From NCBI GenBank assembly GCA_000004985.1, contig GG738895.1: a DNA stretch of 64,000 nucleotides. The stretch is one strand, 5' to 3'. The notes under the pieces are model-generated. The model saw nothing but the letters and a program-made list of their open reading frames with translations, was not told where the DNA came from and did not search any database. Source of the stretch: Naegleria gruberi (taxonomy: Eukaryota). Every line of letters begins with the position of its first letter. Within the stretch, counting starts at the first letter, position 1. This document shows positions 2,048 to 61,418 of this stretch, piece by piece. A program made the translations under genes and the position numbers.

Positions 2048-4021
2048 ATGGAATTACCAACCGAAAAAATGTCTCAACCAGATCTATCAACATTACCACC
2101 AAGACCTCACCATATCAAGATTCTAGGACCACCCTGTGATTGCAAACCAGTGAAACTAACCGTACTAAAACAAGTGGAAGAAAGTACAACAAATTTTGGA
2201 GCTTTCTACTACAAGTGCGCAACATGTCGATACTTTAAATGGGCAACAGATTCTGGTAATTCCATTGATTATGGTGACTTGTGGGCTCCATGTTGTCTTC
2301 TTCATCCCAACCGAAAGTGTAAATTATTGCAAATTGCAAGAAACAGCATTAATAGAGGAAAATTATTTTGGATTTGTGGAGTTTTGGATACTCCTTGTAC
2401 CCATTTTCAATTATTCGAAGGAAATATTGATGATTACAAAGAGTTTGTACCGAATTTTGATGAATCGTTATTGGAAAGTCAAGAACTAGAGAGTTCTCAA
2501 TCAAGTCAAATTGTAATGTCTCAGGCAAATTCAAGAAACATGATCGTTAGTCAATTACCAGAGGAAATCATGGCAGAAATTTTGAAATACTTGGACATGA
2601 TTCCTAATTGGGTGAAAATTATTGGAGTCTGTAAAGAATGGAAGAGAATGATTGATAATGTGATCGACCAGAAAGTGAATGATGGCTTAATTGAGCTTAA
2701 TCTTGGTTTTTTACATTCAAAAAGTCCATTTTGGTATTTTTGTGAAATTTTCAAAAGATTTTACAAAGTAAGAAAGATTACAATTTGTAACTTTGAATTG
2801 TATAGCGAATTAATGAGATTATTGGAATGGGTTGGTGTCGAAACTCTGGTATTATATAATTGCACAACCAAAATGTCCTGTAATCAGAAAGATCAAGTTG
2901 ATGACTCAGATAAGGTCTTAAATGAATGTTTTTCATTTAGGTCTAAATGCACTGAAATGTCATTCTTTCACATTCATGGAGAAACTCTATTATACAATTT
3001 CAATCATAATCATGTGGTACCTCATTTGAATGCTATTAATTCGGACATTTACTTTGAGTTTGTTAAAGAAATGGAAAGAAAAGTTGACATTACCCATAGA
3101 AGGCAGTTTCAAGAGTTGTCTCAGATTATTGCAATTAATTGCCCAGAGGATCTGAATTTTGTTTGGCTTAATGGTCCAGATGCTAGATCCTACCACAAAC
3201 ATGAGCAAGTAGACGCAAACTATGGAGATTTACTCGATTTACCTTTCGAACAAGAAGAATTGGAAAATATTGGAAAGTGTCATGTTAATGTGTATTCTCT
3301 GCCTACAGATATTGACGTTGGTTTTCTAAACCTATCTCTATTGGGACATCATAGAACACCAAAGATTTATGTGAAAAATGGAAAAAAGTACAGCTTTCCT
3401 ACCGTTGTTGATAATCAAGTAATTTCACATCCAGAAATTCAAAAGCAATTCATTCTAAACTGTGGAATTTCCAAGTATTTCAATGTTAACATGCTTGAGA
3501 TTGTCAACAAGGAACATTTCGATATTGCAGTAGAGAGTGGAATTGTACATTTTGAAAATGTTCACAAGCATGCATCCTTCAAAATATGTTTGGAAATATT
3601 GGCAAAGAATTTACTTGAAGATATACTTAAGGTTAATGGGAATGAAAGACTATTTTCCTTATGGAAAGGAACGTGTGTTTATAGACTTGTGTACTGGATA
3701 TACACTTTGCATTCGAAAGGTTTAGTCAAACCAATTCCTTCTTCAATTATTCAAATAGCCAAATCTATTGATTCAGAATGGAAGCAACGAAAACTTCTCT
3801 ACTCTCCTGTTTCAAAATTTTACGTAGATTATTCGAGAAATATTGGTGCTATTAGAGTTCCATTCTCATGGGAAGCTTTTGTTAATTATGGCGAATTGAG
3901 ATATCTTTTTGATGAATCATCTGAAAATTCAAATACAGAAATGGTGGAAAAGAATGCAAATAGAAGAACTTCCAATCAATTCGATTCTCTTAACCAACCA
4001 AAGAAGAGGAAACTAGAATAA
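2048..4021 (+). CDS. Protein with two GRF-type zinc fingers followed by an F-box-like motif
   Basis: Two C..C..N.G..F(Y/W).C....C.FF.W modules (CDCKP..NFGAFYYKCATCRYFKW; CCLLHP..NRGKLFWICGVLDTPCTHFQLF). F-box-like LPEEIMAEILKYLDMIPNWVKIIGVCKEWKRMI. The ORF-track start at 2006 is TTG; the first ATG is at 2048. Confidence 0.6.
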   Translation: MELPTEKMSQPDLSTLPPRPHHIKILGPPCDCKPVKLTVLKQVEESTTNFGAFYYKCATCRYFKWATDSGNSIDYGDLWAPCCLLHPNRKCKLLQIARNSINRGKLFWICGVLDTPCTHFQLFEGNIDDYKEFVPNFDESLLESQELESSQSSQIVMSQANSRNMIVSQLPEEIMAEILKYLDMIPNWVKIIGVCKEWKRMIDNVIDQKVNDGLIELNLGFLHSKSPFWYFCEIFKRFYKVRKITICNFELYSELMRLLEWVGVETLVLYNCTTKMSCNQKDQVDDSDKVLNECFSFRSKCTEMSFFHIHGETLLYNFNHNHVVPHLNAINSDIYFEFVKEMERKVDITHRRQFQELSQIIAINCPEDLNFVWLNGPDARSYHKHEQVDANYGDLLDLPFEQEELENIGKCHVNVYSLPTDIDVGFLNLSLLGHHRTPKIYVKNGKKYSFPTVVDNQVISHPEIQKQFILNCGISKYFNVNMLEIVNKEHFDIAVESGIVHFENVHKHASFKICLEILAKNLLEDILKVNGNERLFSLWKGTCVYRLVYWIYTLHSKGLVKPIPSSIIQIAKSIDSEWKQRKLLYSPVSKFYVDYSRNIGAIRVPFSWEAFVNYGELRYLFDESSENSNTEMVEKNANRRTSNQFDSLNQPKKRKLE

Positions 4022-4223
4022 ACCGTAGACAAGTATTGTAAAATTGATAAAATCTATTCGTTAATCCAATACTGACAAGTAAATCCAAACTTGGACAAAT
4101 TGTTTGTATCATCATTACCATCCATCAAATGTCTTTACAGCTTCCAATTTGCCTTCCTTTTTCTACAGTTTTTTCCACACATTCAGTCAACCAGATCAGA
4201 ACCGTTCATCTCACTCAAAAAAA

Positions 4224-4799
4224 ATGAAACCATTCTTCGCCCTTCTCATTCTCCTCCTCATCCAACAACTTGTTTCCTGCCAATCCATCACCAAACAAAC
4301 CTATTACACTGAAGTCAATTGTGTTGGTGATATTTACACGACCATGTTCCTCGATAGTGGTTCAGCTTGCACATCGAAAGGATCAACTACTTGTAATGTG
4401 ATTACAATTTCTGGTCGTCAAGTTTACTTTACACAGGAATGTACCTCTGAAGTTCCACCTACACCAACCACTTTCACTGATGTCATTGCTTACACATACA
4501 AGAATGGTTCTTCTTGTAATGGGCAACTGAGATCTGCACAGGTCATTCCAATGGGAAAATGCATTATCGAATATGGTACCACTTATTATGCTTATTATGA
4601 TGCAACTGGATTCAAGACTTATTATTATGATAATGCTTGCAAAAGCAAAATGTTCACCACATCATTGTTTTTGAATACTTGTTTGAATGGTAATGTAAAG
4701 TACTCTTCTTTGGGAGGAAGAAATGCAGCCTCTTTGGAAACAAGTGCATCTTTGGGTGTGATTGTGCTAAGTGTATTGTTTAGTTTGGTTTCTTTCTAG
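4224..4799 (+). CDS. Secreted Cys-rich protein with C-terminal hydrophobic tail (GPI-anchor-like)
   Basis: The first ATG (4224) begins a signal peptide, MKPFFALLILLLIQQLVSC. The mature region is Cys-, Thr- and Tyr-rich. The C-terminus (SASLGVIVLSVLFSLVSF) fits a GPI-attachment signal. The ORF-track start 4104 is TTG. Confidence 0.5.
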   Translation: MKPFFALLILLLIQQLVSCQSITKQTYYTEVNCVGDIYTTMFLDSGSACTSKGSTTCNVITISGRQVYFTQECTSEVPPTPTTFTDVIAYTYKNGSSCNGQLRSAQVIPMGKCIIEYGTTYYAYYDATGFKTYYYDNACKSKMFTTSLFLNTCLNGNVKYSSLGGRNAASLETSASLGVIVLSVLFSLVSF

Positions 4800-5566: not shown

Positions 5567-6871
5567 ATGTCTCTAAAAGAACTTTATCCTGACCTTCTGA
5601 TAGATCAAGTTCTTCCCTTTCTCCCTGCGAGGTTCATACTAGATTATAAAATGGCTCCGATCTGGTTTAAAATTCTACCAGATGATTATCAACGCATCCT
5701 AACACAACGATCAAATGATTGGCTATTTACTAAAAGGTATGAAAAGCAGAAATCAAGTGTAGTGGATATTCTGTTGAAAATCATTATCAAATACAAGTCT
5801 GAATGCTATGGAAAATTTGAAAATATTGTCCCAACTGAATTTGGTTATCTTGTTGATAAATTGGAGGAAGGGAAGAGTAAGAATTACAAATCGATCAGGG
5901 AAGAACTAACATTCAGAGATGTGCAATTTATATTCGAGTTTGTGAGTCGATATAATTTCATATATTTGGGGTCCAAGTTTAATAGTATTATGAATAAGAG
6001 TACAGAACCTTTCGAGTTTAGCTGGGTTTATGCTCTTGATCCCTATTACCAAACTAATCAACAATTATTATTGAGAAGATTCAGAAAAAGTTACGATCCT
6101 TTAAGATATATCCACACAGATCTGAACTCGATTGAAGGATGTAAACGAATTCGAGGTCAATTCTATTTCAAGAATGGACACTATTGTTGCGAGCTTTACC
6201 ATGAATTATTCGTTAACATTGAAAAATTGGACAAGATTGAAGTTGACGCCACTTGGTCACTAATAATTTTGCATTCCTTGTCGTTTGATGACCTACATCC
6301 TGTCACTGACGAATACTTTTTGCAGAGATTCTTTTTACCTGTCATTGAATCTCGTCTGGTTTTCCAAAGTGAACGAGATCCCACGCCAACTTGTACCTTC
6401 GGTTCTGATAATGCTATATATTCACGTTTCAATGTTTCACTAATTCCCTCTCAAAACAAAATGGAAGTAGATGCCAAGATCAATAGACAGACTCTATCAA
6501 CCTTATTTTACATTGCTGTATGGTCTTTATTAATCTATTTTAAGCTGCTTTGGCCATTCAGTGATTATTTTGTTTTTCAACCTTACTTTGGAGAAAACCC
6601 ATTCCATTGGAAATCAATACTATTTATTATTTCAGATTTTTTTATACCAATCTATCCGGATTTTTTTATTCTAATCTATCTTATGAGAAGTATTCTTGTT
6701 TATTATTGGGGATTTTGGACAATTCATCATATTACCATATTGGAAACTCTGGTATTCATGTTCTTGTTCTCTGAACTCTGCAATTACATTACAATGTACT
6801 ATTTGCAACACGGAGCTGAGACACATCATGTTAGAACAATACCATGGATAAGGAAGAAAAAGAAGAATTAA
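5567..6871 (+). CDS. Hypothetical protein with F-box-like N-terminus and C-terminal multi-TM region
   Basis: ATG at 5567. The N-terminus LYPDLLIDQVLPFLPARFILDYKMAPIWFKIL is F-box-like. The C-terminal 130 aa are strongly hydrophobic (several predicted TM helices). Confidence 0.5.
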   Translation: MSLKELYPDLLIDQVLPFLPARFILDYKMAPIWFKILPDDYQRILTQRSNDWLFTKRYEKQKSSVVDILLKIIIKYKSECYGKFENIVPTEFGYLVDKLEEGKSKNYKSIREELTFRDVQFIFEFVSRYNFIYLGSKFNSIMNKSTEPFEFSWVYALDPYYQTNQQLLLRRFRKSYDPLRYIHTDLNSIEGCKRIRGQFYFKNGHYCCELYHELFVNIEKLDKIEVDATWSLIILHSLSFDDLHPVTDEYFLQRFFLPVIESRLVFQSERDPTPTCTFGSDNAIYSRFNVSLIPSQNKMEVDAKINRQTLSTLFYIAVWSLLIYFKLLWPFSDYFVFQPYFGENPFHWKSILFIISDFFIPIYPDFFILIYLMRSILVYYWGFWTIHHITILETLVFMFLFSELCNYITMYYLQHGAETHHVRTIPWIRKKKKN

Positions 6872-26920: not shown

Positions 26921-27832
26921 ATGATTCAATTCTTGGATCCAAATGTTGTGCAATTTGAAATTTTACCTCATCTCGATGATCGATCCGTTATTTCACTCCT
27001 ATCGACATGTAAAATTGTCAATCAGGTAATTTCTATTCCGGACTATATCGAAACAAAATTGAAAATAATGGATGAAGAAATTTTGAGTCAGAAATTCAAT
27101 GAGTTGGAACAAAGTCCAATCCAAGTGAATAGAATTAATGAAATATTTAGATTAGCATATTTGAATTTTAGAGAAGGAATGTTTCAAACTGAAAAGCAAT
27201 TGTTAGGAACAGTTAAAGTGGATGAGGCACAATGTTATGGAAAATTGAAATCTCAATATACTCTTTTGCAGAGATATGTTTTCAAGAATTCCGACAAATT
27301 ATCACCACACTGTAATAGGAGTGTTTTTTCAGGTTCAACAGGATTTTGGAATTCTCATAGTGTTGATTTTAAAATCTCAAAAGAGAATACTGTATATTAT
27401 TGGTCCATTGTCCTTACAGCATTTGATCGTAAGATATCAAATAGCTGGGCAATACTTGTAGGTTTTGCTGAAGAGGATGCTGCCTCATCATTATCTAAAA
27501 GCTGGATTCCATCTGGATATTGTGTCAAATCAAATGCAATACTTGAAAATAGTTATACATCATACACAGAGAGCCTTGTGAATACGGAAGGAGATGTCAT
27601 TGGAATTGAGTGCTATGTCCAAAACAAAACAGTCTATTTCAATGTTTACTCTCCTTCGAGGAACCATCAGACCTTTCAATTCAAATCTGTGAATAGTAAT
27701 ATAGTACCAATGGTATCTATGGTACACTCTCAATCACTCCAATTACTTTCATTACTTCCGTGGGATGGGCATGTGGAAAGCTTGAAATCCTTTGGAGAAT
27801 GTGCAACAAGGATTTGTACAGCAGAAGAATGA
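26921..27832 (+). CDS. F-box / SPRY(B30.2)-domain protein (module gene A)
   Basis: The N-terminal F-box-like motif is VVQFEILPHLDDRSVISLLSTCKIVNQVI. The C-terminal SPRY-like pattern is WSIVL...WAILVGFAEED...GYCVKSN...GDVIGIECYVQNKTVYFNV. About 90% identical to the minus-strand copy at 52502..53413. Confidence 0.7.
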   Translation: MIQFLDPNVVQFEILPHLDDRSVISLLSTCKIVNQVISIPDYIETKLKIMDEEILSQKFNELEQSPIQVNRINEIFRLAYLNFREGMFQTEKQLLGTVKVDEAQCYGKLKSQYTLLQRYVFKNSDKLSPHCNRSVFSGSTGFWNSHSVDFKISKENTVYYWSIVLTAFDRKISNSWAILVGFAEEDAASSLSKSWIPSGYCVKSNAILENSYTSYTESLVNTEGDVIGIECYVQNKTVYFNVYSPSRNHQTFQFKSVNSNIVPMVSMVHSQSLQLLSLLPWDGHVESLKSFGECATRICTAEE

Positions 27833-27966: not shown

Positions 27967-29454
27967 ATGGGAAATAACAAGAGCAGAAATCCAACTCCCA
28001 TTCCACCACCATCTTTCGAATTAGATTTCCGAACCATCAAGGAAATTAATCAGGAAAAATTTGTGTTGCATCCAGATTTAACATTCGAAATGGCAACAAA
28101 TTATTTGGAAATTGGTGAAATTTTACAATTGGCATTGTCATGTAAATTATTGTACTCGTATTTGTGGTTTGATCAGGAAAAATTGTGGAACGCAGTGGCA
28201 AGGAGAGATGGCTTTACGATTCGACAGCACGAATGTAAACAACTTTATCGTACGTTGAGGAAGAAGGAGATTAGTTTATTGGAAAATCCAAAATTTAGTT
28301 TGGTTTCTCTCTTTTGGAAACCAGAATTTGTTGCTGAATTTGGGAATATTGAATTGAATCAATTAATTTACATATTAAGAAATCCACATTTTCACATAAT
28401 GGTTAAAGCCAATTTGATTGAATTTTCATTGAAACAATTCATCACTAGTGAGAATTACAAAAAATTGAAGAATCTTTTATATTCAATGTGTAGGATTGAA
28501 AATGGAACAAACATTATATTACCAGATGGTTATTTAGAGAGACCTCCATCTAAAATAACTCTCCTTTCATTATTATGTAAACATTTATTCGAAATACCAG
28601 GTGCTGATGATATTATTATAAGATTTGCACCTTTTGGATTGGTATCTGAGGAAGTGAACAAGTATTCCTCTGTCTTTACATTTGAAAAGAGAATCATTTT
28701 AATATTATTAGAAAAGTGCAAAAGAAAGGAACCTAATTTGGATCAATACTTTACAATATTCACTCAAATATTCGAGAAGAAATTACATTTACTGGAAAAT
28801 TTCTATCAATTCAAAGACTTATTGGACTCATTTCAAACACTGGACATTGAAAAAATTACTCCTACCTTAATCCATTTACTTTCCAGTAATGAGAAATTAT
28901 TTCCAGGAGCTACCTTGCTTGATCTACATGTTTATCATCCAAAAATTGTTGCAGAAATATCAAAGCTGTCTCATTTACCTTGCAATCACTCAATGAACTA
29001 CATTCTAAAGTATTTAGATAACAGTACATTTTCATCTCAAGAACAACTTGCTATACCTCTTGATTCTCTTTTTCAAATATGGGGAAAATATGGTAAAATG
29101 ATTTCTCAATATTATCTAAGAAGGATTTGTGAATTGGATTTTGAAAGAACTGTGAATCAAATATTGGAATGTGAGCCCGTGTCTTTCTGTTCTTTTGACT
29201 GGGATAATCAGCGTTACCAATTTCAGTATTTGTTTTTCTTGAAACAACTGGAAAACCATGTCAAGACTCTTGATTCTTCTGAATATGGATTATTCTTTCA
29301 GAAACTGAAAAAGGTATCAGAAACCATCCATCAGAACAGCAAAGGAGAGGGATACACGAAAATACTGAATTCTATTCTCTTTGAGATTGAGCGGTTTGCA
29401 TCCCAGTATCCATTCAGTAACTCTTTGAAAAAAGCAATTGAACGAGATTTTTAA
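27967..29454 (+). CDS. Hypothetical protein with N-myristoylation signal (MGNNKS) and F-box-like motif
   Basis: ATG at 27967. Gly2 with Ser6 fits the myristoylation consensus. LHPDLTFEMATNYLEIGEILQLALSCKLLYSYLW is F-box-like. 495 aa, no other recognised domain. Confidence 0.5.
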   Translation: MGNNKSRNPTPIPPPSFELDFRTIKEINQEKFVLHPDLTFEMATNYLEIGEILQLALSCKLLYSYLWFDQEKLWNAVARRDGFTIRQHECKQLYRTLRKKEISLLENPKFSLVSLFWKPEFVAEFGNIELNQLIYILRNPHFHIMVKANLIEFSLKQFITSENYKKLKNLLYSMCRIENGTNIILPDGYLERPPSKITLLSLLCKHLFEIPGADDIIIRFAPFGLVSEEVNKYSSVFTFEKRIILILLEKCKRKEPNLDQYFTIFTQIFEKKLHLLENFYQFKDLLDSFQTLDIEKITPTLIHLLSSNEKLFPGATLLDLHVYHPKIVAEISKLSHLPCNHSMNYILKYLDNSTFSSQEQLAIPLDSLFQIWGKYGKMISQYYLRRICELDFERTVNQILECEPVSFCSFDWDNQRYQFQYLFFLKQLENHVKTLDSSEYGLFFQKLKKVSETIHQNSKGEGYTKILNSILFEIERFASQYPFSNSLKKAIERDF

Positions 29455-34683: not shown

Positions 34684-35775
34684 ATGGGAAACAATCAACA
34701 ACCCACATCCCAACCACCAGTTTTAAAAGATGGCGCTCTTCCGAGTGTTAGTACTCCATCATCAGCATGTTATGAACGCACATTAATGCAAGAATATTTT
34801 CCTAATAATTGTAAATTAATTCGAGTTTGTGATCATGATGAAGAAAATCGAAGGAAACAAGAGGAGAATTTGAAGAATTATCGGGAGAAATACTTGTCTC
34901 GATGTAATGGAATATTGGAGAAGATGTTACCTGAGGAAATTATTGTTGAAATTTTGTATTACTTGCCAATGAAGAGTTTGATCAAATTACAAATGGTTTC
35001 AAAGAATTTTCGCTTGTATTGGACTGAACTTCCTGGATTGTGGGATAAATTTTCAGATTATCCCAAAATGATGTATATTCCAATGGTATACGAAAGTATG
35101 AGAAGTAATTTTGGATATTATAATGAATTTAGACAAAAATTAATTAATTTACATGAAAAGCCAACACGAAATTTTGATTTTACTGGATATCAATACAAAG
35201 CCATCGTTTTGGGAGATAAAAAGTGTGGGAAAACCATTTTGCATAACAGAGTCTTCAAAGGCGAACCATTTTCTCAAGAATATGTCTATACGATCGGAGT
35301 AGATTTTTCTACCACAATTTCCAAACAAAACATATACATTCAATCTTGGGATACAGGTGGAGATGAAAGATTTAGAACAATTAATATCAATTTCTTTAGG
35401 GGTATGAAAGGCCACTTTTACTGCTTTGATTTGAATAATCACGAGTCATTTGAAGTAATGAAGGACATTTTTCAAGATTGGAAGAATGTATATCTCAAAG
35501 GTGAAGACCTTAGTTCATATTTTACTAAGATTTCATTCGCATTGGTGGGATTGAAATCAGATTTGGAACGCAAAGTATCAAGAGATGAAATTCATGAATT
35601 CTTGGAAAATATTGAACCACTGAAGGATAAGACTTTGCACACCAGTAGAGTCCAATACTTTGAGTTGAGTTCTAAAGAAGATTCAATTTCAGATTTACTT
35701 TTTCCATTTGTCTATAGTTATCATAATGTAATGGAAATACCAAGGCAATATTCAACAAGTATAAGTGAAATGTAA
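34684..35775 (+). CDS. N-myristoylated F-box + Rab-like small GTPase fusion (module gene C)
   Basis: MGNNQQ.. has Gly2. F-box LPEEIIVEILYYLPMKSLIKLQMVSKNFRLYW. GTPase motifs: G1 GDKKCGKT, switch I YVYTIGVDF (Rab-type TIGxDF), G3 WDTGGDERF (Gln replaced by Asp), G4 LKSD (in place of NKxD), G5 SSKE. No C-terminal prenylation motif. Confidence 0.7.
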   Translation: MGNNQQPTSQPPVLKDGALPSVSTPSSACYERTLMQEYFPNNCKLIRVCDHDEENRRKQEENLKNYREKYLSRCNGILEKMLPEEIIVEILYYLPMKSLIKLQMVSKNFRLYWTELPGLWDKFSDYPKMMYIPMVYESMRSNFGYYNEFRQKLINLHEKPTRNFDFTGYQYKAIVLGDKKCGKTILHNRVFKGEPFSQEYVYTIGVDFSTTISKQNIYIQSWDTGGDERFRTININFFRGMKGHFYCFDLNNHESFEVMKDIFQDWKNVYLKGEDLSSYFTKISFALVGLKSDLERKVSRDEIHEFLENIEPLKDKTLHTSRVQYFELSSKEDSISDLLFPFVYSYHNVMEIPRQYSTSISEM

Positions 35776-52501: not shown

Positions 52502-53413
52502 TCATTCTTCTGCTGTACAAATCTTTGTTGCACATTCTCCAAAGGATTTCAGGCTTTCCACATGTCCATCCCACGGAAGTAATGAAAGTAATTGGAGTGA
52601 TTGAGAGTCTACCAGAGATACCATTGGTACTATATTACTATTAACATATTCGAATTGAAAAGTCTGATGGTTCCTCGAAGGGGAGTAAACATTGAAATAG
52701 ACTGTTTTGTTTTGGATATAACATTCAATTCCAATGACATCTCCTTCAGTATTCACACTGTGCTCTGAGTATAATTTATAACTACTTGTAACTGTTGCAT
52801 TCGATTTGATACAATAGCCATATAGAATCCATTTATCATATAGTGATGAGACAGCATCCTCTTCAGCAAAACCTACAATTATTGCCCAGCCATTTGATAT
52901 CTTCCAATCATAAGCTGTAAGTACTATGGACCAATAATATATAGTATTCTCTTTTGAGATTTTAAAATCAACACTATGAGAATTCCAAAATCCTGTTGAA
53001 CCTGAAAAAACACTCCTATTACAGTGTGGTGATAATTTGTTAGAATTCTTGAAAACATATCTCTTTAAAAGAGTATATTGAGATTTCAATTTTCCATAAC
53101 ATTGTGCCTCATCCACTTTAACTGTTCCTATCAATTGCTTTTCTGTTTGGAACATTCCTTCTCTAAAATTCAAATATGCTAATCTAAATATTTCATTAAT
53201 TCTATTCACTTGGATTGGACTTTGTTCCAACTCATTGAATTTCTGACTCAAAATTTCTTCATCCATTATTTTCAATTTTGTTTCGATATAGTCCGGAATA
53301 GAAATTACCTGATGGACAATTTTACATGTCGATAGGAGTGAAATAACGGATCGATCATCGAGATGAGGTAAAATTTCAAATTGCACAACATTCGGATCCA
53401 AGAATTGAATCAT
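52502..53413 (-). CDS. F-box / SPRY-domain protein (module gene A')
   Basis: About 90% identical to 26921..27832. The N-terminal 130 aa are nearly identical and the SPRY region is more diverged. The first ATG at 53413 gives MIQFLDPN.. (the track start is TTG). Confidence 0.7.
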   Translation of the reverse strand: MIQFLDPNVVQFEILPHLDDRSVISLLSTCKIVHQVISIPDYIETKLKIMDEEILSQKFNELEQSPIQVNRINEIFRLAYLNFREGMFQTEKQLIGTVKVDEAQCYGKLKSQYTLLKRYVFKNSNKLSPHCNRSVFSGSTGFWNSHSVDFKISKENTIYYWSIVLTAYDWKISNGWAIIVGFAEEDAVSSLYDKWILYGYCIKSNATVTSSYKLYSEHSVNTEGDVIGIECYIQNKTVYFNVYSPSRNHQTFQFEYVNSNIVPMVSLVDSQSLQLLSLLPWDGHVESLKSFGECATKICTAEE

Positions 53414-53581: not shown

Positions 53582-55018
53582 ATGAAAAAAGTTAAAAAAG
53601 TTAAAAAAGTTAAAAAATCGAAAACTGTCAAGTCATTGGCAGTTGAAGATCAAGTGGTCATACAGGCTGGCCTGTTAGCACCGTTATCATCATCGGATGT
53701 TTTGTTTTATCAAATATTACCATGCTTTCCATTAAAATTGTTATTCGAAACAGCAAGATTAGTTTGTAAAGAATGGAATTTATTTATTGTGGGAAATCAT
53801 AATGATGCTGGTCATGTAAAAGAATATTTTACAGGTCGGTACTCTCTGATCATTCCCCGTGAAAAAGAAGAATCTCTGATGACTTGTATTCGTGCTGGAT
53901 ATTTCCGAAATATAATTCAAAAATTACATTTCAAAGCTTTTGATTCATTTTGTAATCCTTCTATTGTTAGAAACTCAGGAGTGATTGAAATGGTTCCACA
54001 AATTAGTTCAACTTTATTGGATGATTCTTTTCCAAATGTTGAGGAAATTATTATTGGAACTGTCAATTCAGATTCTTGTATTATAAGAGAGGGATTTTGT
54101 AAAAACAAACTGGAAAAGTTGAAATTGTTGAAGATGACCATGCAAAGGGACGTGTCAATTTCTGATATATTTTCATGTGATTTTATGCAAAATTTGACAT
54201 GCTTGAATTTGGATAACTGCTTTATTGATTATACAACAGTTTTACAAATTAGTGAATGTCCACTGAAGAACTTGGAGAAATTGTGCTTAGGATATAATTC
54301 AATAACTCAATTGGGAGCTCTTACATTGTCCAAAAGCAAACATCTTTCAAAATTAACATATTTAGATTTGACTTATAATGACATTGGTGATGAAGGGCTT
54401 AGACATCTTTGTGAAAGTGAAACACTGTGTAATATTTCAAATCTATTATTGGAATTTAATGTAATTTCAGAATTGGAGCCTCTTTTACAAAGCTCCAATA
54501 TGAAAAATCTAGCACATTTGAATTTGTATAGATGTAGTTTGAATTTAAAAAGCTTTATGTCATTGATATCTTGCCCTAATTTACCAAAACTTTCAGAAAT
54601 TAGTCTATACCATGCAGGTTTAACAGGAATGCAAGAATTAGAAACTTCTCACATCATAGTATCCAACTCAATCAATCGACTTGATCTATCCTCTTGCAGT
54701 TTAGATGATTTGGGATTTAGGTGTTTGTTAAATTCCCTCAAATACGACTCCATTACTGAACTAAATCTTAGGTACAATGAAATTGGAAATGAAGGATTGT
54801 TGTGCCTAGCTGAATGTCCCTTCCTGACCAATTTGAGGATACTCGACCTATCTGGAAATCCAATAGATGATGAAGGTGCCCTCTACCTGGCACAAAACGT
54901 TCAATTTCCAAATATTAAGGAATTAATTTTAGAGTTTACCAAAATGACCAAAAATGGCAGTGAAAAATTTTCAGAAATTATTTTACAACGATTCCCAAAT
55001 GTTAATTTAACTATTTAA
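53582..55018 (+). CDS. F-box-like + RNI-type leucine-rich-repeat protein
   Basis: Lys-rich N-terminus encoded by an (AAAAAGTT)n repeat. F-box-like ..LFYQILPCFPLKLLFETARLVCKEWNLFIV. C-terminal RNI-like LRRs (..LDLTYNDIGDEGLRHL..; ..LNLRYNEIGNEGLLCL..; ..LDLSGNPIDDEGALYL..). Confidence 0.65.
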   Translation: MKKVKKVKKVKKSKTVKSLAVEDQVVIQAGLLAPLSSSDVLFYQILPCFPLKLLFETARLVCKEWNLFIVGNHNDAGHVKEYFTGRYSLIIPREKEESLMTCIRAGYFRNIIQKLHFKAFDSFCNPSIVRNSGVIEMVPQISSTLLDDSFPNVEEIIIGTVNSDSCIIREGFCKNKLEKLKLLKMTMQRDVSISDIFSCDFMQNLTCLNLDNCFIDYTTVLQISECPLKNLEKLCLGYNSITQLGALTLSKSKHLSKLTYLDLTYNDIGDEGLRHLCESETLCNISNLLLEFNVISELEPLLQSSNMKNLAHLNLYRCSLNLKSFMSLISCPNLPKLSEISLYHAGLTGMQELETSHIIVSNSINRLDLSSCSLDDLGFRCLLNSLKYDSITELNLRYNEIGNEGLLCLAECPFLTNLRILDLSGNPIDDEGALYLAQNVQFPNIKELILEFTKMTKNGSEKFSEIILQRFPNVNLTI

Positions 55019-55099: not shown

Positions 55100-56123
55100 T
55101 CATTTTATTCTTGGTAATATTGTTAAAATTATATTTAAAAAGCCTTCAGTTTCAATATTGTTTGCATTGATATTGAGATCTGTTAACTGAGATAAGTGAC
55201 TCAATGATTTGGCACCTTCAGCACCAATATTATTTGTACTGATATTCAAAGTGGTCAATTTGCCTAGTTGACTGATATACATTGCTCCAGTGTTTCCAAT
55301 TTTAGAATAACTAATATTCAAGTCTGTTAATTGTGACATTTCGGATATAATTTTTGCCCCTTCATCTCCAATATAATTACAACTAATATTCAAATTATTT
55401 AAATTTTCCATTTGACTAATGAACTTGACTCCAACTACAGACAAATTTGGACAATTCGAAACATCAAGCTTTGTTAACTGTTTAATTTCACTAATTTTCT
55501 CTACAGATCTATCATTAAGATCAGAATATCTTACACGAAGTGATTTCAAAGTTTTTGATTGTGAAATAACATTCATCTGAAATGTTTCATCATTTTCTAA
55601 TGAAAATGCTGAATAACTCAAATCGAGTGAAATCAAATTTTTCATTCCAAATACAGAAAAAGATCCTGAATATCCAATACGATTGCTACATATATTCAAA
55701 CTAGTCAAGTTTGCCATTGTACTGATATGTTTAGCTCCTTCATCTCCAATTGAATTATAACTCAGATCAAGATTGGTCAATTGAGTCAAATTTTGAGAAA
55801 TTAATTGAGCTCCTTTCGTCCTAATTCTACAAACACTATTCCCAACAAGTTTCAATTCAACAATATTCCCAATAATTCCAGATTTAACAATATTTTCCAC
55901 AATTTTATCCTCAACCTCCAAATCAACAGAAAGTTTTGCCCTATTTTTGATTACTTCATGCCAATTACGAGAAATTAATAAACAACTTTGTATAATCATT
56001 GAAGAATCCAAAAAGGTAAGAATTTCATAACAAATATCATCAGGAAATACTTGATTTCGAAATTATTATATAAAAAATTACATAATTTTAGCAATTACAC
56101 TCACAATCAGGATTGGATTTCAT
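55100..56123 (-). CDS. F-box + RNI-type LRR protein; 2 exons (about 56105..56123, 55100..56049)
   Basis: The track ORF starts at TTG inside an F-box. An upstream mini-exon ATGAAATCCAATCCTGATT, followed by a GTGAGT donor and a 55-nt intron ending ATCAAG, restores MKSNPDLFPDDICYEILTFLD..LLISRNWHEVI (a complete F-box). The body has 24-aa RNI-type LRRs (LTDLNISYSKIGNTGAMYISQLGK). Confidence 0.65.
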
Positions 56124-56411
56124 TCCGATAGGTGCATCAATGGATTGTTTCATCTTTTTCCTATTAGAAAAATTATCATCATTTTCCCTTCTTTTTGTTT
56201 TTGACATTTTTTTAAATTTCAAATTAATTTGAAAATTGGAAAATCAAAACATTGTAAACGATTTAATTGGCGGACCATCTCACTTAATAATCAACTCAAA
56301 ACATCCACCTCCCCGACTGCTAATAAGCAGGGATGTTTAAGCGGACTATTGGTCCACCATTCGAATAGACATCAACAAGAATCGAATTTATGTAAACTCA
56401 TCAAAAAAAAA

Positions 56412-57322: not shown

Positions 57323-57395
57323 GCCCGTCTAGCTCAGTCGGTAGAGCGCAAGGCTCTTAACCTTGTGGTCGTGGGTTCGACCCCCACGGTGGGCG
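57323..57395 (+). tRNA. tRNA-Lys (anticodon CUU)
   Basis: Acceptor GCCCGTC/GGTGGGC. D arm GCTC-AGTCGGTAG-AGCG. Anticodon stem CAAGG/CCTTG, loop CTCTTAA. T arm GTGGG-TTCGACC-CCCAC. T-run follows. Confidence 0.9.
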
Positions 57396-57695
57396 TTTCC
57401 TTTTAATTTTATTATCTTTGATTTTAGCCAATCAACTGAGGAAAAATCAACTCTTCATAAGGCCATCCTAATTCGAATCAGGTACATAGTTTGCACAAGA
57501 GAAAAAAGTATTATTTTAGAACATGACGGAACATCAAGAATTGTTGTAACACAACATATTAATTGTTTCCTGTTGGTATGGCTTGTCTGGTATCGTTTCT
57601 TGTGTCATATTAATCAGAAAAAACTACCAATATTTTCAGCATCAAATAATCAATTATCATCATCATGATGGAGGTAAAACAAGAAGAAGGTTGGT

Positions 57696-59141
57696 ATGTT
57701 CTCGAGAACAAGGGTTATTTTCAAAATAATAATAATAATAATAATTAATGAATTGCTAATAGAGAATATTATATTTTCGGATGATGTTTGTTTTGAAATT
57801 ATTTCCATGATTGATGATTCGTGGTTTATTTTGAATAATTGTTCTTTAATTTCAAAACAATGGTTTAATGTGATCAAGGATCGTTCAAAACTTGTTATTC
57901 AATTTAAAAAAAAATTAACAGAAAAAAGAGTTGAATTATTAATGAAAAGTCAATTCATGAACAGTATTGTAAATGTTAAGTTTTCTTTTGGGTTGCTTAA
58001 CTCTTCAGATAAACTTAAATTCATAAGTGAAATGAAACATTTAACATCACTTGATATTGCTGACAATCAAATTGGTGATGAGGGATCTAAATTCATAAGT
58101 GGAATGAAACATTTAACATCACTTAATATAGATCGCAATCAAATTGGTGTAGAAGGAGCCAAACTCATAAGTGGAATGAAATCATTAATATCACTTAGTA
58201 TTGGTGATAATCAAATTGGTGTAGAAGGAGCCAAACTCATAAGTGGAATGAAACATTTAACATCACTTGATATAAATCGCAATCAAATTGGTGTAGAAGG
58301 AGCCAAATCAATAAGTAGAATGAAACAATTAACATCACTTAATATATATTACAATCAAATTGGTGCTGAGGGAGCCAAATCAATAAGTGGAATGAAACAA
58401 TTAACATCACTTGATATTGGTGGAAATCAAATTGGTGTAGAAGAATCCAAATACATAAGTGAAATGAAACAATTAACATCACTTGATATATATAACAATC
58501 AAATTGGTGTAGAAGGAGCCAAATCAATAAGTGGAATGAAACAATTAACATCACTTAATATTGGTTTCAATCGAATTGGTGTAGAAGGATCCAAACTCAT
58601 AAGTGAAATGAAACAATTAACATCACTTAATATTGGTTCCAATGAAATTGGTGTAGAAGGGTCCAAATTCATACCTGAAATGAAACATTTAACATCACTT
58701 AATATATATTACAATGAAATTGGTGATGAAGGATCCAAATACATAAGTGAAATGAAACAATTAACATCACTTGATATATATTACAATGAAATTGGTGTGG
58801 AAGGAGCCAAATACATAAGTGAAATGAAACAATTAACATCACTTGGTATTAGTGATAATCAAATTGGTGTAGAAGGAGCCAAATTCATAAGTGAAATGAA
58901 ATTATTAACATCACTTGATATTGCTGACAATCAAATTGGTGATGAGGGATCTAAATTCATAAGTGAAATGAAATCATTAACATCGCTTAATGTTAATTCC
59001 AATCAAATTGGTGATGAGGGAGCCAAACTTATAAGTGGAATGAAACAATTAACATCACTTAAAATATATTACAATCAAATTGGTGAAACTTTATTAATGT
59101 CTGTTATATCAATAACAGCTGAGACCAAATCTTTAGACTAA
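57696..59141 (+). CDS. F-box-like + RNI-type LRR protein built from about 15 near-identical 24-aa repeats
   Basis: The N-terminal F-box-like motif is IFSDDVCFEIISMIDDSWFILNNCSLISKQWFNVI. It is preceded by a poly-Ile stretch encoded by an (ATA)6 microsatellite. The body is MKHLTSLDIADNQIGDEGSKFISG repeated with few changes. Confidence 0.7.
   Translation: MFSRTRVIFKIIIIIIINELLIENIIFSDDVCFEIISMIDDSWFILNNCSLISKQWFNVIKDRSKLVIQFKKKLTEKRVELLMKSQFMNSIVNVKFSFGLLNSSDKLKFISEMKHLTSLDIADNQIGDEGSKFISGMKHLTSLNIDRNQIGVEGAKLISGMKSLISLSIGDNQIGVEGAKLISGMKHLTSLDINRNQIGVEGAKSISRMKQLTSLNIYYNQIGAEGAKSISGMKQLTSLDIGGNQIGVEESKYISEMKQLTSLDIYNNQIGVEGAKSISGMKQLTSLNIGFNRIGVEGSKLISEMKQLTSLNIGSNEIGVEGSKFIPEMKHLTSLNIYYNEIGDEGSKYISEMKQLTSLDIYYNEIGVEGAKYISEMKQLTSLGISDNQIGVEGAKFISEMKLLTSLDIADNQIGDEGSKFISEMKSLTSLNVNSNQIGDEGAKLISGMKQLTSLKIYYNQIGETLLMSVISITAETKSLD
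58020..59090 (+). repeat. 72-bp tandem repeat array (about 15 copies) encoding the LRR units of the 57696..59141 gene
   Basis: Direct reading shows a reiterated unit AAACAATTAACATCACTTGATAT..AATCAAATTGGTGTAGAAGGAGCCAAA..ATAAGTGGAATG with greater than 85% nucleotide identity between neighbours. Confidence 0.8.
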
Positions 59142-60240: not shown

Positions 60241-60320
60241 TGGTTTCATGGCAATGTTAAACAATTGCCTCGTCTCTTGCCATGGTTCCTCATATAGCAT
60301 TTTGCAAAGCAAATGGATGT

Positions 60321-61418
60321 TTATAGCATGGTTTTTAGAGTGGCAACAGCATAGAGGAATGGAAAGAGAAGGTCATCATCAGAGCACTCTTCTTTGGAGC
60401 TTAATTCAAAATATTGAACTTTGGTTGTGTGAATTGTTTTTTGTTGAGGCTCTGGCTCGACCATTTTTAGAAAATTGTAAATTTCAAGTCTTGTTACTTG
60501 ATGATCGAGATCTGATTTCAATCCGAGTAAGAGGAAACATCTATCATTGATATTGTAATCTGAAATATCTTTGACTGTCATTTCGTGATAAATTTCAATC
60601 ATTTCCTCAAATGATTTATGACTATTCAAATCAAAACAATACACAAAAACATTAGCTCTCGAATAAACAGATTTGAATAGCGATAGATATGTTTGATTTC
60701 CACATGTATCCCAAATCTTGAATGCAAATTCCGTCCCACTTCCATAAAGGTAATGCTTGTCAATTACTGGGAAAGTTATTGAGGGTGTATAATTTTCCGA
60801 AAATGGTAATTGATTAAAAGCTCTATCAATCAAAGTGGATTTACCACACCCTGATGACCCAACAAATATGTATTGGGCACATTGAGGCAATTCAACATCC
60901 TCATCTATTACAAATCTCTTCAGCAAGACATTTTTAACATTTTCATAACTTTCCATATCAGAAAACATGTACAACATTGGACTTTTTCTCCTCAAATCCT
61001 TCCACAGAACTTCAAATCTGGTCCAATACATTAAAAATCTCTTTGAAACTCGTTGCATTCTCCCTATACTTTCCATATCCAAAAATTGTAAAATGTGTAA
61101 AATTATTTCATGAGGAAAATTCGTCAACCAACCATCCTTCTCCTCACCCTGATTGAAATACTCATCATTGCCTCCATATCCTCTCCTAATTCCATTAAAA
61201 ATTCCTATCGGAAGCAATTCTACATCCGAAACAATAGTAGAAAGAATAGATTTCCTCTTGAATCCTCTTGGTAATTCCAACACGGGAAAATGTAGGGATT
61301 TTCCTGTAGAATAAAGTAAATTTTCAGATTGTTCACGGGAGGGGATTTTATTTTCATCTCTTGCTTGGTGATTCAGAGATGATGATGAGGGCGTCTCTGT
61401 TGATGTTTGTTGTCCCAT
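60321..61418 (-). CDS. N-myristoylated F-box + Rab-like small GTPase fusion (module gene C')
   Basis: MGQQTS.. has Gly2. F-box FPHEIILHILQFLDMESIGRMQRVSKRFLMYW. G1 GSSGCGKST, G3 WDTCGNQTY, G4 LKSD, G5 SSKE. About 35% identical to 34684..35775 with the same domain order. Confidence 0.7.
   Translation of the reverse strand: MGQQTSTETPSSSSLNHQARDENKIPSREQSENLLYSTGKSLHFPVLELPRGFKRKSILSTIVSDVELLPIGIFNGIRRGYGGNDEYFNQGEEKDGWLTNFPHEIILHILQFLDMESIGRMQRVSKRFLMYWTRFEVLWKDLRRKSPMLYMFSDMESYENVKNVLLKRFVIDEDVELPQCAQYIFVGSSGCGKSTLIDRAFNQLPFSENYTPSITFPVIDKHYLYGSGTEFAFKIWDTCGNQTYLSLFKSVYSRANVFVYCFDLNSHKSFEEMIEIYHEMTVKDISDYNINDRCFLLLGLKSDLDHQVTRLEIYNFLKMVEPEPQQKTIHTTKVQYFELSSKEECSDDDLLFPFLYAVATLKTML

What the first reader, a model, noticed from the sequence alone, without database searches (positions are those of the whole stretch)
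2048..61418. Window is an F-box protein hot-spot (at least 11 F-box-like genes with diverse partner domains)
F-box-like N-termini occur in genes at 2048 (with GRF zinc fingers), 5567 and 32078 (with C-terminal multi-TM regions), 26921 and 52502 (SPRY), 27967 (myristoylated), 34684 and 60321 (Rab-like GTPase), and 53582, 55100 and 57696 (RNI-LRR). That is roughly a quarter of the genes in 64 kb. Several partner combinations are unusual: F-box + GRF zinc finger, F-box + polytopic membrane domain, and myristoyl + F-box. The locus looks like a birth-and-death cradle for substrate adaptors.
Basis: seen in the sequence. Interest (0 to 1): 0.55.

Follow-up and report, generated by a model that had tools for sequence, protein, structure and literature searches.

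The report
Naegleria F-box gene cluster, partly confirmed
This stretch of the amoeba Naegleria gruberi's genome carries eight (not eleven) genes for F-box proteins, the adaptors that pick targets for protein degradation; such clusters are a familiar kind of fast-evolving gene family, and the most exotic claimed versions did not hold up.

Summary
The window is Naegleria gruberi NEG-M nuclear DNA. Of the 11 hand-called F-box genes, 8 are supported and 3 are not.

- **Pass Pfam's curated F-box cut-offs (3):** 2048, 34684 and 60321.
- **Sub-threshold in Pfam, recovered by other tests (5):** 55100 (once its 55-nt intron is spliced), 57696, 26921, 52502 and 53582. An independent, Pfam-validated F-box profile and hhalign recover them. 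In a blind six-frame scan, the top 8 of 714 segments are exactly these 8 genes.
- **At noise level in every test (3):** 5567, 32078 and 27967. All three are orphans or near-orphans.

Consequences for the claimed architectures:
- "F-box + polytopic membrane domain" and the "myristoyl + F-box" gene 27967 are unsupported.
- F-box + GRF zinc finger is real.
- F-box + LRR and F-box + SPRY are canonical architectures.
- F-box + Rab-like GTPase is already published for Naegleria (PMC8296547).

Five F-box genes of three architectures lie among seven protein genes at 52.5-61.4 kb. Local paralogy is clear: a CDS-sized SPRY duplicate (dS about 0.11), an LRR pair and a Rab-like pair. Genome-wide enrichment and gene "death" could not be tested. 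Overall this is an ordinary fast-evolving adaptor cluster with one possibly undescribed architecture.

The parts
2048..4021 (+). GRF zinc fingers (aa 28-67 and about 80-124; nt about 2129-2419), then an F-box (aa 168-205; nt 2549-2662), then a roughly 450-aa C-terminal region of unknown family
   Evidence: Pfam F-box-like 25.5 bits and F-box 24.9 bits, both above cut-off. Zn_ribbon_GRF scores 24.7 bits in 2 stretches against a cut-off of 25.9. The only PDB hits of the N-terminus are the NEIL3 GRF fingers, E 0.008. hhalign against the reference F-box profile gives 96.8%.
26921..27832 (+). F-box-like N-terminus (aa 7-44; nt 26939-27052) plus a SPRY-like C-terminal domain (aa 159-275). This is NAEGRDRAFT_81123.
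   Evidence: Pfam on the N-terminal segment gives F-box-like 14.9 and F-box 14.7 bits, both sub-threshold. The reference HMM gives 10.8 bits. The family profile of 3 sequences scores 86% (E 5e-6) against the F-box profile. UniRef names it 'F-box domain-containing protein'. SPRY scores 21.2 bits, below the 26.3 cut-off.
34684..35775 (+). MG- N-terminus, F-box (aa 82-115; nt 34927-35028), then a divergent Rab-like GTPase domain (aa 172-332)
   Evidence: Pfam F-box 29.0 bits and Ras 83.2 bits. It is 49% identical to the reannotated N. gruberi F-box Rab-like protein XP_002677491.1* of PMC8296547 Table S8.
52502..53413 (-). Recent inverted copy of the F-box/SPRY-like gene (F-box-like at nt 53282-53395)
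   Evidence: It is 93.9% identical in nucleotides to 26897-27833 over 937 bp and 90% identical in amino acids. dS is 0.113 and dN 0.052, and the flanks do not align. The reference HMM gives 9.7 bits and hhalign 41.5%.
53582..55018 (+). Probable F-box-like N-terminus (aa about 41-75; nt about 53702-53806) plus RNI-type LRRs
   Evidence: LRR_6 scores 77.8 bits. There is no Pfam F-box hit. The reference HMM gives 9.3 bits, hhalign gives 76.5% (E 2e-5), and 0 of 100 shuffles reach its score.
55100..56207 (-). Two-exon F-box/LRR gene: exon 1 at 56207-56105, intron at 56104-56050, exon 2 at 56049-55100. The F-box lies at nt 55943-56047.
   Evidence: The sequence shows a GTGAGT..AG intron that preserves the reading frame. 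The spliced N-terminus scores Pfam F-box-like 19.1 bits, E 1e-3. The reference HMM gives 22.7 bits and hhalign 93%. LRR_6 scores 97.4 bits.
57665..59141 (+). F-box/LRR gene. The 5' end is uncertain: either the ATG at 57696, or the ATG at 57665 followed by a 73-nt intron at 57690-57762. The F-box lies at nt about 57777-57884. About 14-15 tandem 24-aa LRR units follow.
   Evidence: LRR_6 scores 234 bits. Pfam F-box-like scores 14.5 bits, E 0.03. The reference HMM gives 13.5 bits and hhalign 84.4%. The 72-bp units are 83-86% identical. The gene is 40-44% identical in amino acids to 55100.
60321..61418 (-). MG- N-terminus, F-box (aa 98-143; nt 60990-61127), then a divergent Rab-like GTPase domain
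   Evidence: Pfam F-box-like 29.0 bits, F-box 27.6 bits and Ras 80.9 bits. It is 36% identical to 34684.
5567..6871 (+). Claimed F-box + transmembrane gene. The F-box is NOT supported. This is an orphan ORF with at least 2 C-terminal hydrophobic helices.
   Evidence: There is no Pfam F-box hit. The reference HMM gives 0.1 bits and hhalign 10.5%. It ranks 43rd of 618 segments with the extended HMM. phmmer against PDB finds no F-box protein. No homologue was found, not even the ORF itself, in 5.8 billion proteins. Hydropathy confirms the helices.
27967..29454 (+). Claimed myristoyl + F-box gene. The F-box is NOT supported. This is an orphan protein starting MGNNKS.
   Evidence: There is no Pfam hit and no PDB hit. 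The reference HMM gives 5.1 bits and hhalign 22%. It ranks 23rd of 618 segments. The homologue search finds only the protein itself.
32078..33580 (+). Claimed F-box + transmembrane gene. The F-box is NOT supported. It has four C-terminal hydrophobic helices.
   Evidence: The reference HMM gives -0.3 bits and hhalign 1.8%. It ranks 65th of 618 segments. Among 1.84 billion representatives, the only hits are the protein itself (an annotated model that lacks residues 1-122) and one 34% relative that covers only residues 238-500.

Best explanation
The window is a gene-dense stretch of a 334-kb Naegleria gruberi scaffold. It contains eight genuine or probable F-box genes of four architectures:
- GRF zinc finger + F-box (one gene);
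- F-box + SPRY-like (two genes);
- F-box + RNI-type LRR (three genes);
- F-box + divergent Rab-like GTPase (two genes).

Five of the eight are packed among seven protein genes at 52.5-61.4 kb.

By inference from what is established for F-box proteins, each acts as a substrate receptor of an SCF (Skp1-Cullin1-Rbx1) ubiquitin ligase. The roughly 40-residue F-box docks on Skp1. The variable domain (LRR solenoid, SPRY sandwich, GTPase domain or ssDNA-binding GRF finger) selects the substrate or the place of action.

The cluster grew at least partly by local gene duplication followed by divergence concentrated in the substrate-binding part. In the youngest pair, the F-box half is almost unchanged while a 34-residue patch of the SPRY-like domain has changed at 17 positions.

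Shown here: domain content, paralogy, and the pattern of divergence. Inferred, not shown: Skp1 binding, ubiquitylation, and the substrates.
For: - Organism: the 26921 product is 100% identical to NAEGRDRAFT_81123, on a contig of 333,733 bp.
- F-box evidence: the Pfam, independent-profile, blind six-frame and hhalign results listed in the observation check.
- Partner domains.
- Paralogy and internal repeat expansion.
- Splicing of 55100.
- SPRY pair: dS 0.113, dN 0.052. Residues 1-100 carry 2 changes. In the patch at residues 187-220, pN is 0.265 against pS 0.132, while pN is about 0.03 elsewhere in the domain. The flanks are only about 55% identical, so the duplicate is limited to the CDS.
- Conservation: a 59%-identical orthologue in another sample keeps the N-terminal 31 residues almost invariant and scores 15.2 bits with the F-box profile.
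- Published context: Naegleria F-box + Rab/Rho/Ran/G-alpha GTPases and their 'birth-and-death evolution' are described in PMC8296547, supplementary file 4. Gene 34684 is 49% identical to a member listed there.
- Comparable systems: birth and death of F-box superfamilies is well documented in plants (PMC3030570).
Against: - Only 3 of the 8 pass Pfam's curated thresholds.
- 53582 rests on a home-made profile and hhalign at 76%.
- The SPRY assignment is sub-threshold, and the family profile finds nothing in the PDB.
- The AlphaFold model of the SPRY protein was unusable (pLDDT 36.7), so no fold-level confirmation exists.
- The genome-wide F-box density of N. gruberi is unknown to me, so 'hot-spot' is argued only by a bound.
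- The omega of about 2 in the SPRY patch is not significant on its own (Fisher p 0.26).
- Different architectures sitting side by side is not explained by simple tandem duplication.
Confidence: 0.78

Rival explanations
1. All eleven calls are right. On this reading 5567, 32078 and 27967 are extremely divergent, lineage-specific F-box proteins that profiles cannot see, which would include membrane-anchored SCF adaptors.
For: Their N-termini can be aligned by eye to the L-P-x-E...I-L...L...V-C-K-x-W pattern. hhalign scores are reached by only 1-2 of 100 shuffles. A profile of the seven N-termini that Pfam does not detect hits only F-box proteins in the PDB.
Against: The signal is explained by the LRR and SPRY members. 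Tested individually, the three find no F-box protein in the PDB. They score 5.1, 0.1 and -0.3 bits. They rank 23rd, 43rd and 65th of 618 window segments even with a profile that includes Naegleria F-boxes. They were picked by eye for looking like the motif, so beating shuffles at the 1-2% level is expected. There are no homologues from which to build a family profile. The annotated model of 32078 omits the region altogether.
Confidence: 0.1
2. There is no hot-spot. F-box genes are simply so numerous in N. gruberi that a window like this arises by chance, together with the first reader having selected it.
For: Naegleria has large expansions of F-box-bearing families. The F-box label occurs 72 times in the GTPase table of PMC8296547 for two species. 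The closest known paralogue of 34684 lies elsewhere in the genome. The genome-wide count could not be obtained.
Against: Binomial bound, if F-box genes are 3% of all genes, a level I recall for Arabidopsis and C. elegans (my own knowledge, not checked here): the probability of 8 or more in 43 genes is 4e-5, or about 0.02 such windows per genome. The probability of 5 in 7 consecutive genes is 5e-7. Chance becomes plausible only above about 5-10% of all genes. Several members are demonstrably local paralogues, which is itself non-random.
Confidence: 0.1
3. The F-box/LRR genes were acquired horizontally from amoeba-associated bacteria or giant viruses, which carry many F-box and RNI-type LRR proteins. 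On this reading they are not native expansions.
For: Large F-box expansions are reported in amoeba symbionts of the Parachlamydiaceae (PMC4209131, seen; title and abstract only).
Against: Gene 55100 has a spliceosomal GT..AG intron. GC content is uniform at 32-36% across the window. The neighbouring genes are ordinary eukaryotic genes (RPL28e, an RNA polymerase subunit, tubulin, a kinase). No test of transfer was made.
Confidence: 0.03

Closest known systems
Naegleria-specific F-box + Rab-like GTPases (Herman et al. 2021, BMC Biol, PMC8296547, supplementary material 4 and Table S8)
   Same: Genes 34684 and 60321 have an N-terminal extension with a Pfam-significant F-box upstream of a divergent Rab-like domain. 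Gene 34684 is 49% identical over 356 residues to a listed N. gruberi member. That paper already proposes birth-and-death evolution for these clades.
   Different: The two window genes were not found by sequence string in the held supplement text; they may be listed there only by accession. They lack a C-terminal Cys/CaaX motif and start with MG, which suggests N-myristoylation (inference). Their position next to other F-box families is not discussed in that paper as far as I read it.
FBXL-class SCF receptors (F-box + leucine-rich repeats, e.g. Skp2, TIR1)
   Same: Genes 53582, 55100 and 57696 have an N-terminal F-box followed by RNI-type LRRs (Pfam LRR_6 at 78-234 bits).
   Different: The F-boxes are divergent and sub-threshold in Pfam. 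Gene 57696 carries about 14-15 near-identical 24-residue repeats, which indicates very recent internal expansion. No orthology to any characterised FBXL protein was tested.
FBXO45 / FSN-1 type F-box + SPRY proteins of animals
   Same: Domain order: a short N-terminal F-box, then a C-terminal SPRY-like beta domain of similar overall size (about 300 aa).
   Different: The SPRY match is below Pfam's cut-off, and there is no sequence hit to any solved SPRY structure. The family has only three known members: two here and one 59% relative. This is probably independent domain combination rather than orthology.
Lineage-specific, tandemly duplicated F-box superfamilies of plants and nematodes (e.g. Hua et al. 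2011, PMC3030570)
   Same: Local duplication; conserved F-box with a divergent substrate-binding part; many lineage-restricted members.
   Different: Here several unrelated architectures are interleaved in one small locus rather than forming a single tandem array. Pseudogenes, a hallmark in plants, were not demonstrated.
GRF zinc-finger proteins (APE2, NEIL3, TOP3A, ZGRF1)
   Same: The N-terminus of gene 2048 has two C-x-C ... G-[RA]-x-F ... C motifs. The only solved structures it matches are the NEIL3 GRF fingers.
   Different: In this gene the GRF fingers are fused to an F-box rather than to a DNA-processing enzyme. A literature search found no description of such a fusion. The domain-architecture databases could not be queried.

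Membership tests
F-box domain (Pfam PF00646 / PF12937) | Profile match above the curated gathering score | tested here: met
   Genes 2048, 34684 and 60321 only: 24.0-29.0 bits against cut-offs of 20.5 and 24.3.
F-box domain (Pfam PF00646 / PF12937) | Profile match, for genes 55100, 57696, 26921, 52502 and 53582 | tested here: inconclusive
   Pfam is sub-threshold (19.1, 14.5 and 14.9 bits; none for 53582). An independent validated profile ranks them 2nd and 5th-8th of 714 six-frame segments. hhalign gives 93, 84.4, 86 (family profile) and 76.5%.
F-box domain (Pfam PF00646 / PF12937) | Profile match, for genes 5567, 32078 and 27967 | tested here: not met
   There is no Pfam hit at E up to 1. 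Scores are 0.1, -0.3 and 5.1 bits. They rank 43rd, 65th and 23rd of 618 segments. hhalign gives 10.5, 1.8 and 22%.
F-box domain (Pfam PF00646 / PF12937) | Three-helix fold that binds Skp1 | tested here: inconclusive
   The AlphaFold2 model of 26921 from a 3-sequence alignment has pLDDT 36.7 and is unusable. Skp1 binding cannot be tested with these tools.
FBXL class (F-box + LRR) | Leucine-rich repeats C-terminal to the F-box | tested here: met
   LRR_6 scores 77.8, 97.4 and 234.1 bits in 53582, 55100 and 57696.
F-box/SPRY (FBXO45-like) | SPRY domain C-terminal to the F-box | tested here: inconclusive
   PF00622 scores 21.2 and 16.6 bits against a cut-off of 26.3, covering profile positions 2-116 of 121. 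The family profile finds no solved structure at E up to 1.
Naegleria F-box + Rab-like GTPases (PMC8296547) | F-box-bearing N-terminal extension upstream of a divergent Rab-like GTPase domain, with similarity to listed members | tested here: met
   Ras scores 83.2 and 80.9 bits alongside the F-box in both genes. Gene 34684 is 49% identical to the reannotated XP_002677491.1*.
GRF zinc finger (PF06839) | Profile match, and the Cys/GRxF pattern | tested here: inconclusive
   24.7 bits in two stretches against a cut-off of 25.9. The only PDB hits are the NEIL3 tandem GRF fingers, E 0.008-0.02. The second copy has NRGKLFWIC. The first has a degenerate NFGAFYYKC.
Birth-and-death tandem gene cluster | Local paralogues of graded age | tested here: met
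   The SPRY pair is 93.9% identical in nucleotides. LRR genes 55100 and 57696 are 40-44% identical in amino acids. The Rab-like pair is 36% identical.
Birth-and-death tandem gene cluster | Pseudogenised members | tested here: inconclusive
   There is one weak candidate: an F-box-like reading frame with an in-frame TGA at about 30160-30400(-). It scores 7.2 bits, or 11.6 bits if the stop is read as Cys; hhalign gives 17%.
Birth-and-death tandem gene cluster | Significant enrichment relative to the rest of the genome, and turnover relative to sister species | not testable with these tools
   The N. gruberi genome is not indexed for context look-ups. No eukaryotic genome collection is available. 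Only a binomial bound was computed.

The most novel reading that the evidence does not exclude
The locus is a place where one F-box module is repeatedly recombined with unrelated partner domains (GRF finger, SPRY, LRR, Rab-like GTPase and perhaps membrane anchors). On this reading, new substrate-adaptor architectures, including a DNA-targeted GRF-F-box receptor and membrane-embedded F-box proteins (5567, 32078), are being generated in place rather than merely duplicated.
Probability: 0.08. Interest if true: 0.6.

Novelty: new member of a known kind. Interest (0 to 1): 0.3.

Why it matters
F-box proteins decide which proteins a cell destroys. Fast-evolving F-box families are thought to track changing targets such as pathogens, prey or environmental signals.

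This cluster adds a protist example to a pattern known mainly from plants and nematodes. It also offers a clean young gene pair (26921 / 52502) in which the Skp1-docking half is frozen while a short patch of the presumed substrate-binding domain has diverged.

The GRF-finger + F-box gene would be worth a look if confirmed, because it would link SCF ubiquitylation to single-stranded DNA.

Otherwise the genome is published, the GTPase fusions are described, and the architectures are canonical. The practical value is mainly corrected gene models and a warning that three of the eye-called F-boxes are not supported.

Tried and rejected
- **Single-sequence phmmer against PDB.** The N-termini of 5567, 32078, 27967 and 26921 gave no F-box hits. 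This was uninformative for 26921, which was later supported by a family profile.
- **Homologue searches to build family profiles.**
  - 5567 found nothing, not even itself.
  - 27967 found only itself.
  - 32078 found itself plus one partial relative.
  - 26921 found only three family members.
  - No profiles could therefore be built for the three doubtful genes.
- **AlphaFold2 of 26921.** With 3 sequences the model had pLDDT 36.7 and was discarded; no fold search was run. The second structure job was not used, because the orphans have no alignments and would give equally poor models.
- **SPRY family profile against PDB.** No hit.
- **Genomic context and genome-wide distribution via the look-up of encoding contigs.** N. 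gruberi is not indexed; five look-ups failed. P0006 also failed.
- **Synteny.** The one related contig (L003, 6.5 kb) shares no gene with the window other than the SPRY orthologue.
- **Literature.** I looked for a genome-wide F-box count in Naegleria and for the N. gruberi genome paper. Neither was found or held.
- **Supplement string search.** Searching the PMC8296547 supplements for the two window Rab-like sequences found nothing.
- **Failed script.** The first hhalign script hung and was rerun.
- **Giant-virus or bacterial origin.** I considered and rejected this for the window as a whole. It has spliceosomal introns, eukaryotic housekeeping genes and an exact match to N. gruberi.

Full report
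**Identity of the window**

GC content is 32-37% throughout. ORFs are dense, and short GT..AG introns are present. The product of 26921-27832 is 100% identical to the Naegleria gruberi protein NAEGRDRAFT_81123, on a 333,733-bp contig. The products of 27967 and 32078 also match N. gruberi predicted proteins.

The neighbouring genes are ordinary eukaryotic genes:
- peptidase M20, glyoxalase, Zn-ADH, SDR and an SNF transporter;
- rhodanese, a protein kinase and a divergent tubulin;
- an Enhancer-of-polycomb-like protein, an RPB9-type polymerase subunit and RPL28e;
- peptidase S49, dienelactone hydrolase and a fatty-acid desaturase.

I count roughly 43 protein genes and six tRNA genes.

**Checking the F-box calls**

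A plain Pfam scan of the eleven models at E up to 1 finds F-box families in only three, all above the gathering scores: 2048, 34684 and 60321. The F-box is short, however, and an hmmscan E-value is corrected for 24,736 models, so I made targeted tests.

1. **Gene model of 55100(-).** The ORF is truncated. An upstream exon (ATG at 56207) and a 55-nt GTGAGT...AG intron (56104-56050) restore a complete F-box, 'LFPDDICYEILTFLDSSMIIQSCLLISRNWHEVIKNR'.
2. **Pfam on N-terminal segments alone.** Sub-threshold F-box hits appear as the best or only family for spliced 55100 (19.1 bits, E 1e-3), 57696 (14.5 bits, E 0.03) and 26921 (14.9 / 14.7 bits). There is nothing for 53582, 27967, 5567 or 32078.
3. 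**Independent reference profile.** An HMM built from them, run with all filters off, gives the following:
   - 25.5 bits for 2048, 22.8 for 34684, 22.7 for 55100 and 21.8 for 60321;
   - 13.5 for 57696, 10.8 for 26921, 9.7 for 52502 and 9.3 for 53582;
   - 5.1 for 27967, 0.1 for 5567 and -0.3 for 32078.
4. **Blind six-frame scan.** Among all 714 stop-to-stop segments, the eight best hits are exactly those eight genes. No further F-box appears. Ten-fold shuffles give 0.2 hits per window at 9 bits or more, 0.1 at 10 bits or more, and none at 13 bits or more.
5. **hhalign against the reference alignment**:
   - 96.8, 94.8, 93.6 and 93.0% for the four strongest genes;
   - 84.4% for 57696 and 76.5% for 53582;
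   - 49% and 41.5% for the two SPRY genes;
   - 22%, 10.5% and 1.8% for 27967, 5567 and 32078.
6. **SPRY family profile.** With its one outside relative (59% identical, from a Logan assembly), the three-sequence profile reaches 86%, E 5e-6. The relative alone scores 15.2 bits. The N-terminal 31 residues are nearly invariant across the family. UniRef already names the protein 'F-box domain-containing protein'.
7. **Naegleria-enriched profile.** With a profile that also includes the eight Naegleria F-boxes, the three doubtful genes rank 23rd, 43rd and 65th of 618 segments, which is noise.
8. **Pooled profile against PDB.** A profile of the seven N-termini that Pfam does not detect retrieves only F-box proteins from the PDB (best E 0.003). 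The four non-LRR members searched individually retrieve none, so that collective signal comes mainly from the LRR genes.

Conclusion: eight F-box genes are supported. Four are strong, two good and two moderate, and the two moderate ones become good with the family profile. Three are unsupported.

**The three failures**

- Gene 5567 has no detectable relative at all, and not even an annotated self-match, in 5.8 billion proteins.
- Gene 27967 matches only itself.
- Gene 32078 matches its own annotated model, which starts at residue 123 and so lacks the supposed F-box, plus one 34% relative covering only residues 238-500.

The long ORFs in an AT-rich genome argue that these are real coding sequences. 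The C-terminal hydrophobic helices are real: at least 2 in 5567 and 4 in 32078. Nothing beyond an eye-fit supports an F-box. So 'F-box + polytopic membrane domain' and the 'myristoylated F-box' gene 27967 should be dropped as observations and kept only as low-probability possibilities.

**Partner domains**

- LRR_6 is very strong in 53582, 55100 and 57696.
- Ras-family GTPase is strong in 34684 and 60321.
- SPRY is sub-threshold but spans almost the whole model, and the family profile finds no solved structure.
- GRF is 1.2 bits below threshold. The only PDB proteins matched by the N-terminus are the tandem GRF fingers of NEIL3 (E 0.008).

Reading the sequences directly, both Rab-like proteins keep the P-loop (GDKKCGKT and GSSGCGKS). 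They lack the catalytic Gln after DTxG (WDTGGDE and WDTCGNQ), have LKSD instead of NKxD, have no C-terminal cysteine, and begin with MG. Gene 60321 begins MGQQTS, which fits the G2/S6 myristoylation consensus; that is my inference and was not tested.

**Anatomy of the cluster**

The supported genes lie at 2.0, 26.9, 34.7, 52.5, 53.6, 55.1, 57.7 and 60.3 kb. The last five, of three architectures, lie among seven protein genes in 9 kb.

Self-comparison shows:
- The SPRY genes are an inverted duplicate, 93.9% identical over 937 bp. The duplicated segment is the CDS plus about 24 bp; the flanks are about 55% identical, which is unalignable.
- LRR genes 55100 and 57696 are 40-44% identical. Gene 55100 has a phase-1 intron just before the F-box; 57696 appears to have one at the same position, but that gene model is tentative.
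- Gene 53582 is a more distant LRR relative.
- The Rab-like pair is 36% identical. Gene 34684 is closer (49%) to a paralogue listed in the literature and located elsewhere in the genome.
- Gene 57696 contains about 14-15 tandem 72-bp LRR units at 83-86% identity.

For the SPRY pair, dS is 0.113 and dN 0.052. Residues 1-100 carry 2 replacements, while residues 187-220 carry 17 of the 31 replacements (pN 0.265 against pS 0.132, compared with pN of about 0.03 in the rest of the domain). This is the expected picture for an adaptor whose docking module is constrained and whose recognition surface diverges. The excess over synonymous change is not significant with so few sites.

**Is it more than chance?**

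I could not obtain the genome-wide F-box count. The context tool does not index N. gruberi, the genome paper is not held, and literature searches gave no number. A bound is possible:

| F-box share of all genes | P(8 or more of 43 genes) | P(5 or more of 7 consecutive genes) |
|---|---|---|
| 3% | 4e-5 (about 0.02 such windows per genome) | 5e-7 |
| 5% | 1e-3 (about 0.75 such windows per genome) | 6e-6 |
| 10% | 0.06 | 1.8e-4 |

The 3% row is the level I recall for Arabidopsis and C. elegans; that figure is my own knowledge and was not checked here. Chance becomes plausible only at about 5-10% of all genes. Demonstrable local paralogy is in any case non-random. I therefore accept a real local cluster, with the caveat stated.

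**Mechanism**

This rests on established knowledge of the family and was not tested here. The F-box docks on Skp1 in SCF ubiquitin ligases, and the C-terminal domain recruits substrates.
- For the LRR and SPRY-like members this is the canonical reading.
- For the Rab-like members, Herman et al. suggest GTPase-dependent ubiquitylation (PMC8296547, supplementary file 4).
- For the GRF member, an SCF receptor directed to single-stranded DNA is my speculation. It is based on my recollection, not checked here, that the GRF fingers of APE2, NEIL3 and TOP3A bind single-stranded DNA.

**Comparison with what is known**

- F-box + LRR (the FBXL class) and F-box + SPRY (FBXO45 / FSN-1) are standard architectures.
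- F-box + Rab/Rho/Ran/G-alpha fusions, and their birth-and-death dynamics in Naegleria, are published. A FYVE-F-box-GTPase protein is known in Euglenozoa (PMC3593210).
- Clustered, rapidly turning-over F-box superfamilies are well known in plants (PMC3030570).
- I found no description of a GRF + F-box fusion, but the architecture databases could not be queried.
- The interleaving of several architectures in one small locus is mildly unusual and remains unexplained.

**Verdict**

- This is a new example of a known kind of fast-evolving adaptor gene cluster in an already published genome. Interest is modest.

Noticed in passing
window 30160-30400 (-), upstream of ORF 29594-30163 (-): A reading frame 'MSSLMPADIFINEIISHLFHPSPMSVLVLRLV*IRNWNETLIGAVDFWRHRLE' looks like a full F-box interrupted by an in-frame TGA, and it is out of frame with the downstream 189-aa ORF. 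It may be a decayed ninth F-box gene or a sequencing or annotation problem. Support is weak: 7.2 bits, or 11.6 bits if the stop is read as Cys; hhalign 17%; no Pfam hit.
   Followed up: partly
window 26897-27833 (+) versus 52501-53436 (-): The duplicated segment of the F-box/SPRY-like gene is almost exactly the CDS. It is 93.9% identical while the 300-bp flanks are unalignable. Seventeen of the 31 amino-acid differences fall in residues 187-220 (pN 0.265 against pS 0.132). This suggests either a CDS-limited duplication or gene conversion, with a hypervariable patch.
   Followed up: partly
window 58016-59086 (+): Inside the 57696 LRR gene there are about 14-15 head-to-tail 72-bp (24-aa) units at 83-86% nucleotide identity. 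This indicates very recent internal repeat expansion or homogenisation.
   Followed up: no
window 33612-34388 (+) and 45766-46560 (-): Two paralogous ORFs of about 260 aa (49% identical) contain only the N-terminal DEAD-box helicase domain. The DEAD motif is degenerate (IIDRTG and IVEEMS), and there is no helicase C-terminal domain. They may be stand-alone pseudo-helicase modules.
   Followed up: no
window 5567-6871 (+) and 32078-33580 (+): The 434-codon ORF at 5567 has no match, not even to itself, in a 5.8-billion-protein collection, so it seems to be unannotated in N. gruberi. The annotated model for 32078 starts at residue 123 of the ORF.
   Followed up: partly
window 34684-35775 (+) and 60321-61418 (-): Both F-box/Rab-like proteins start with MG (MGNNQQ and MGQQTS) and have no C-terminal cysteine. 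They also lack the catalytic Gln of the DTAGQ motif and have LKSD in place of NKxD. They are possibly N-myristoylated, GTPase-deficient Rab-like domains (read; not tested).
   Followed up: no
window 25446-26812 (-): This is a divergent two-exon tubulin-like gene. The N-terminal half matches Pfam Tubulin at 110 bits, while the C-terminal half matches no family.
   Followed up: no
window 11303-11375, 31801-31874, 39819-39898, 45360-45430, 52314-52386, 57323-57395: Six dispersed tRNA genes (Ala-TGC, Thr-AGT, Leu-CAA, Gly-GCC, Asn-GTT, Lys-CTT). Two of them sit inside the tight F-box sub-cluster.
   Followed up: no
L001 / L002 (ENA ERZ929261, Logan ERR1078381) versus window about 42.2-45.9 kb: A contig labelled 'metagenome' encodes exactly the window's RPL28e, alongside peptidase S49 and DEAD-domain genes matching the window's neighbours. 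N. gruberi-like DNA therefore appears to be present in that sample.
   Followed up: no
L003 1-6529 (Logan SRR25266747): The only outside relative of the F-box/SPRY-like family (59% identical) sits on a 6.5-kb contig with 32.6% GC. Its other ORFs, including a Peptidase_C48-like gene, have no counterpart in the window, so no local synteny is visible.
   Followed up: partly
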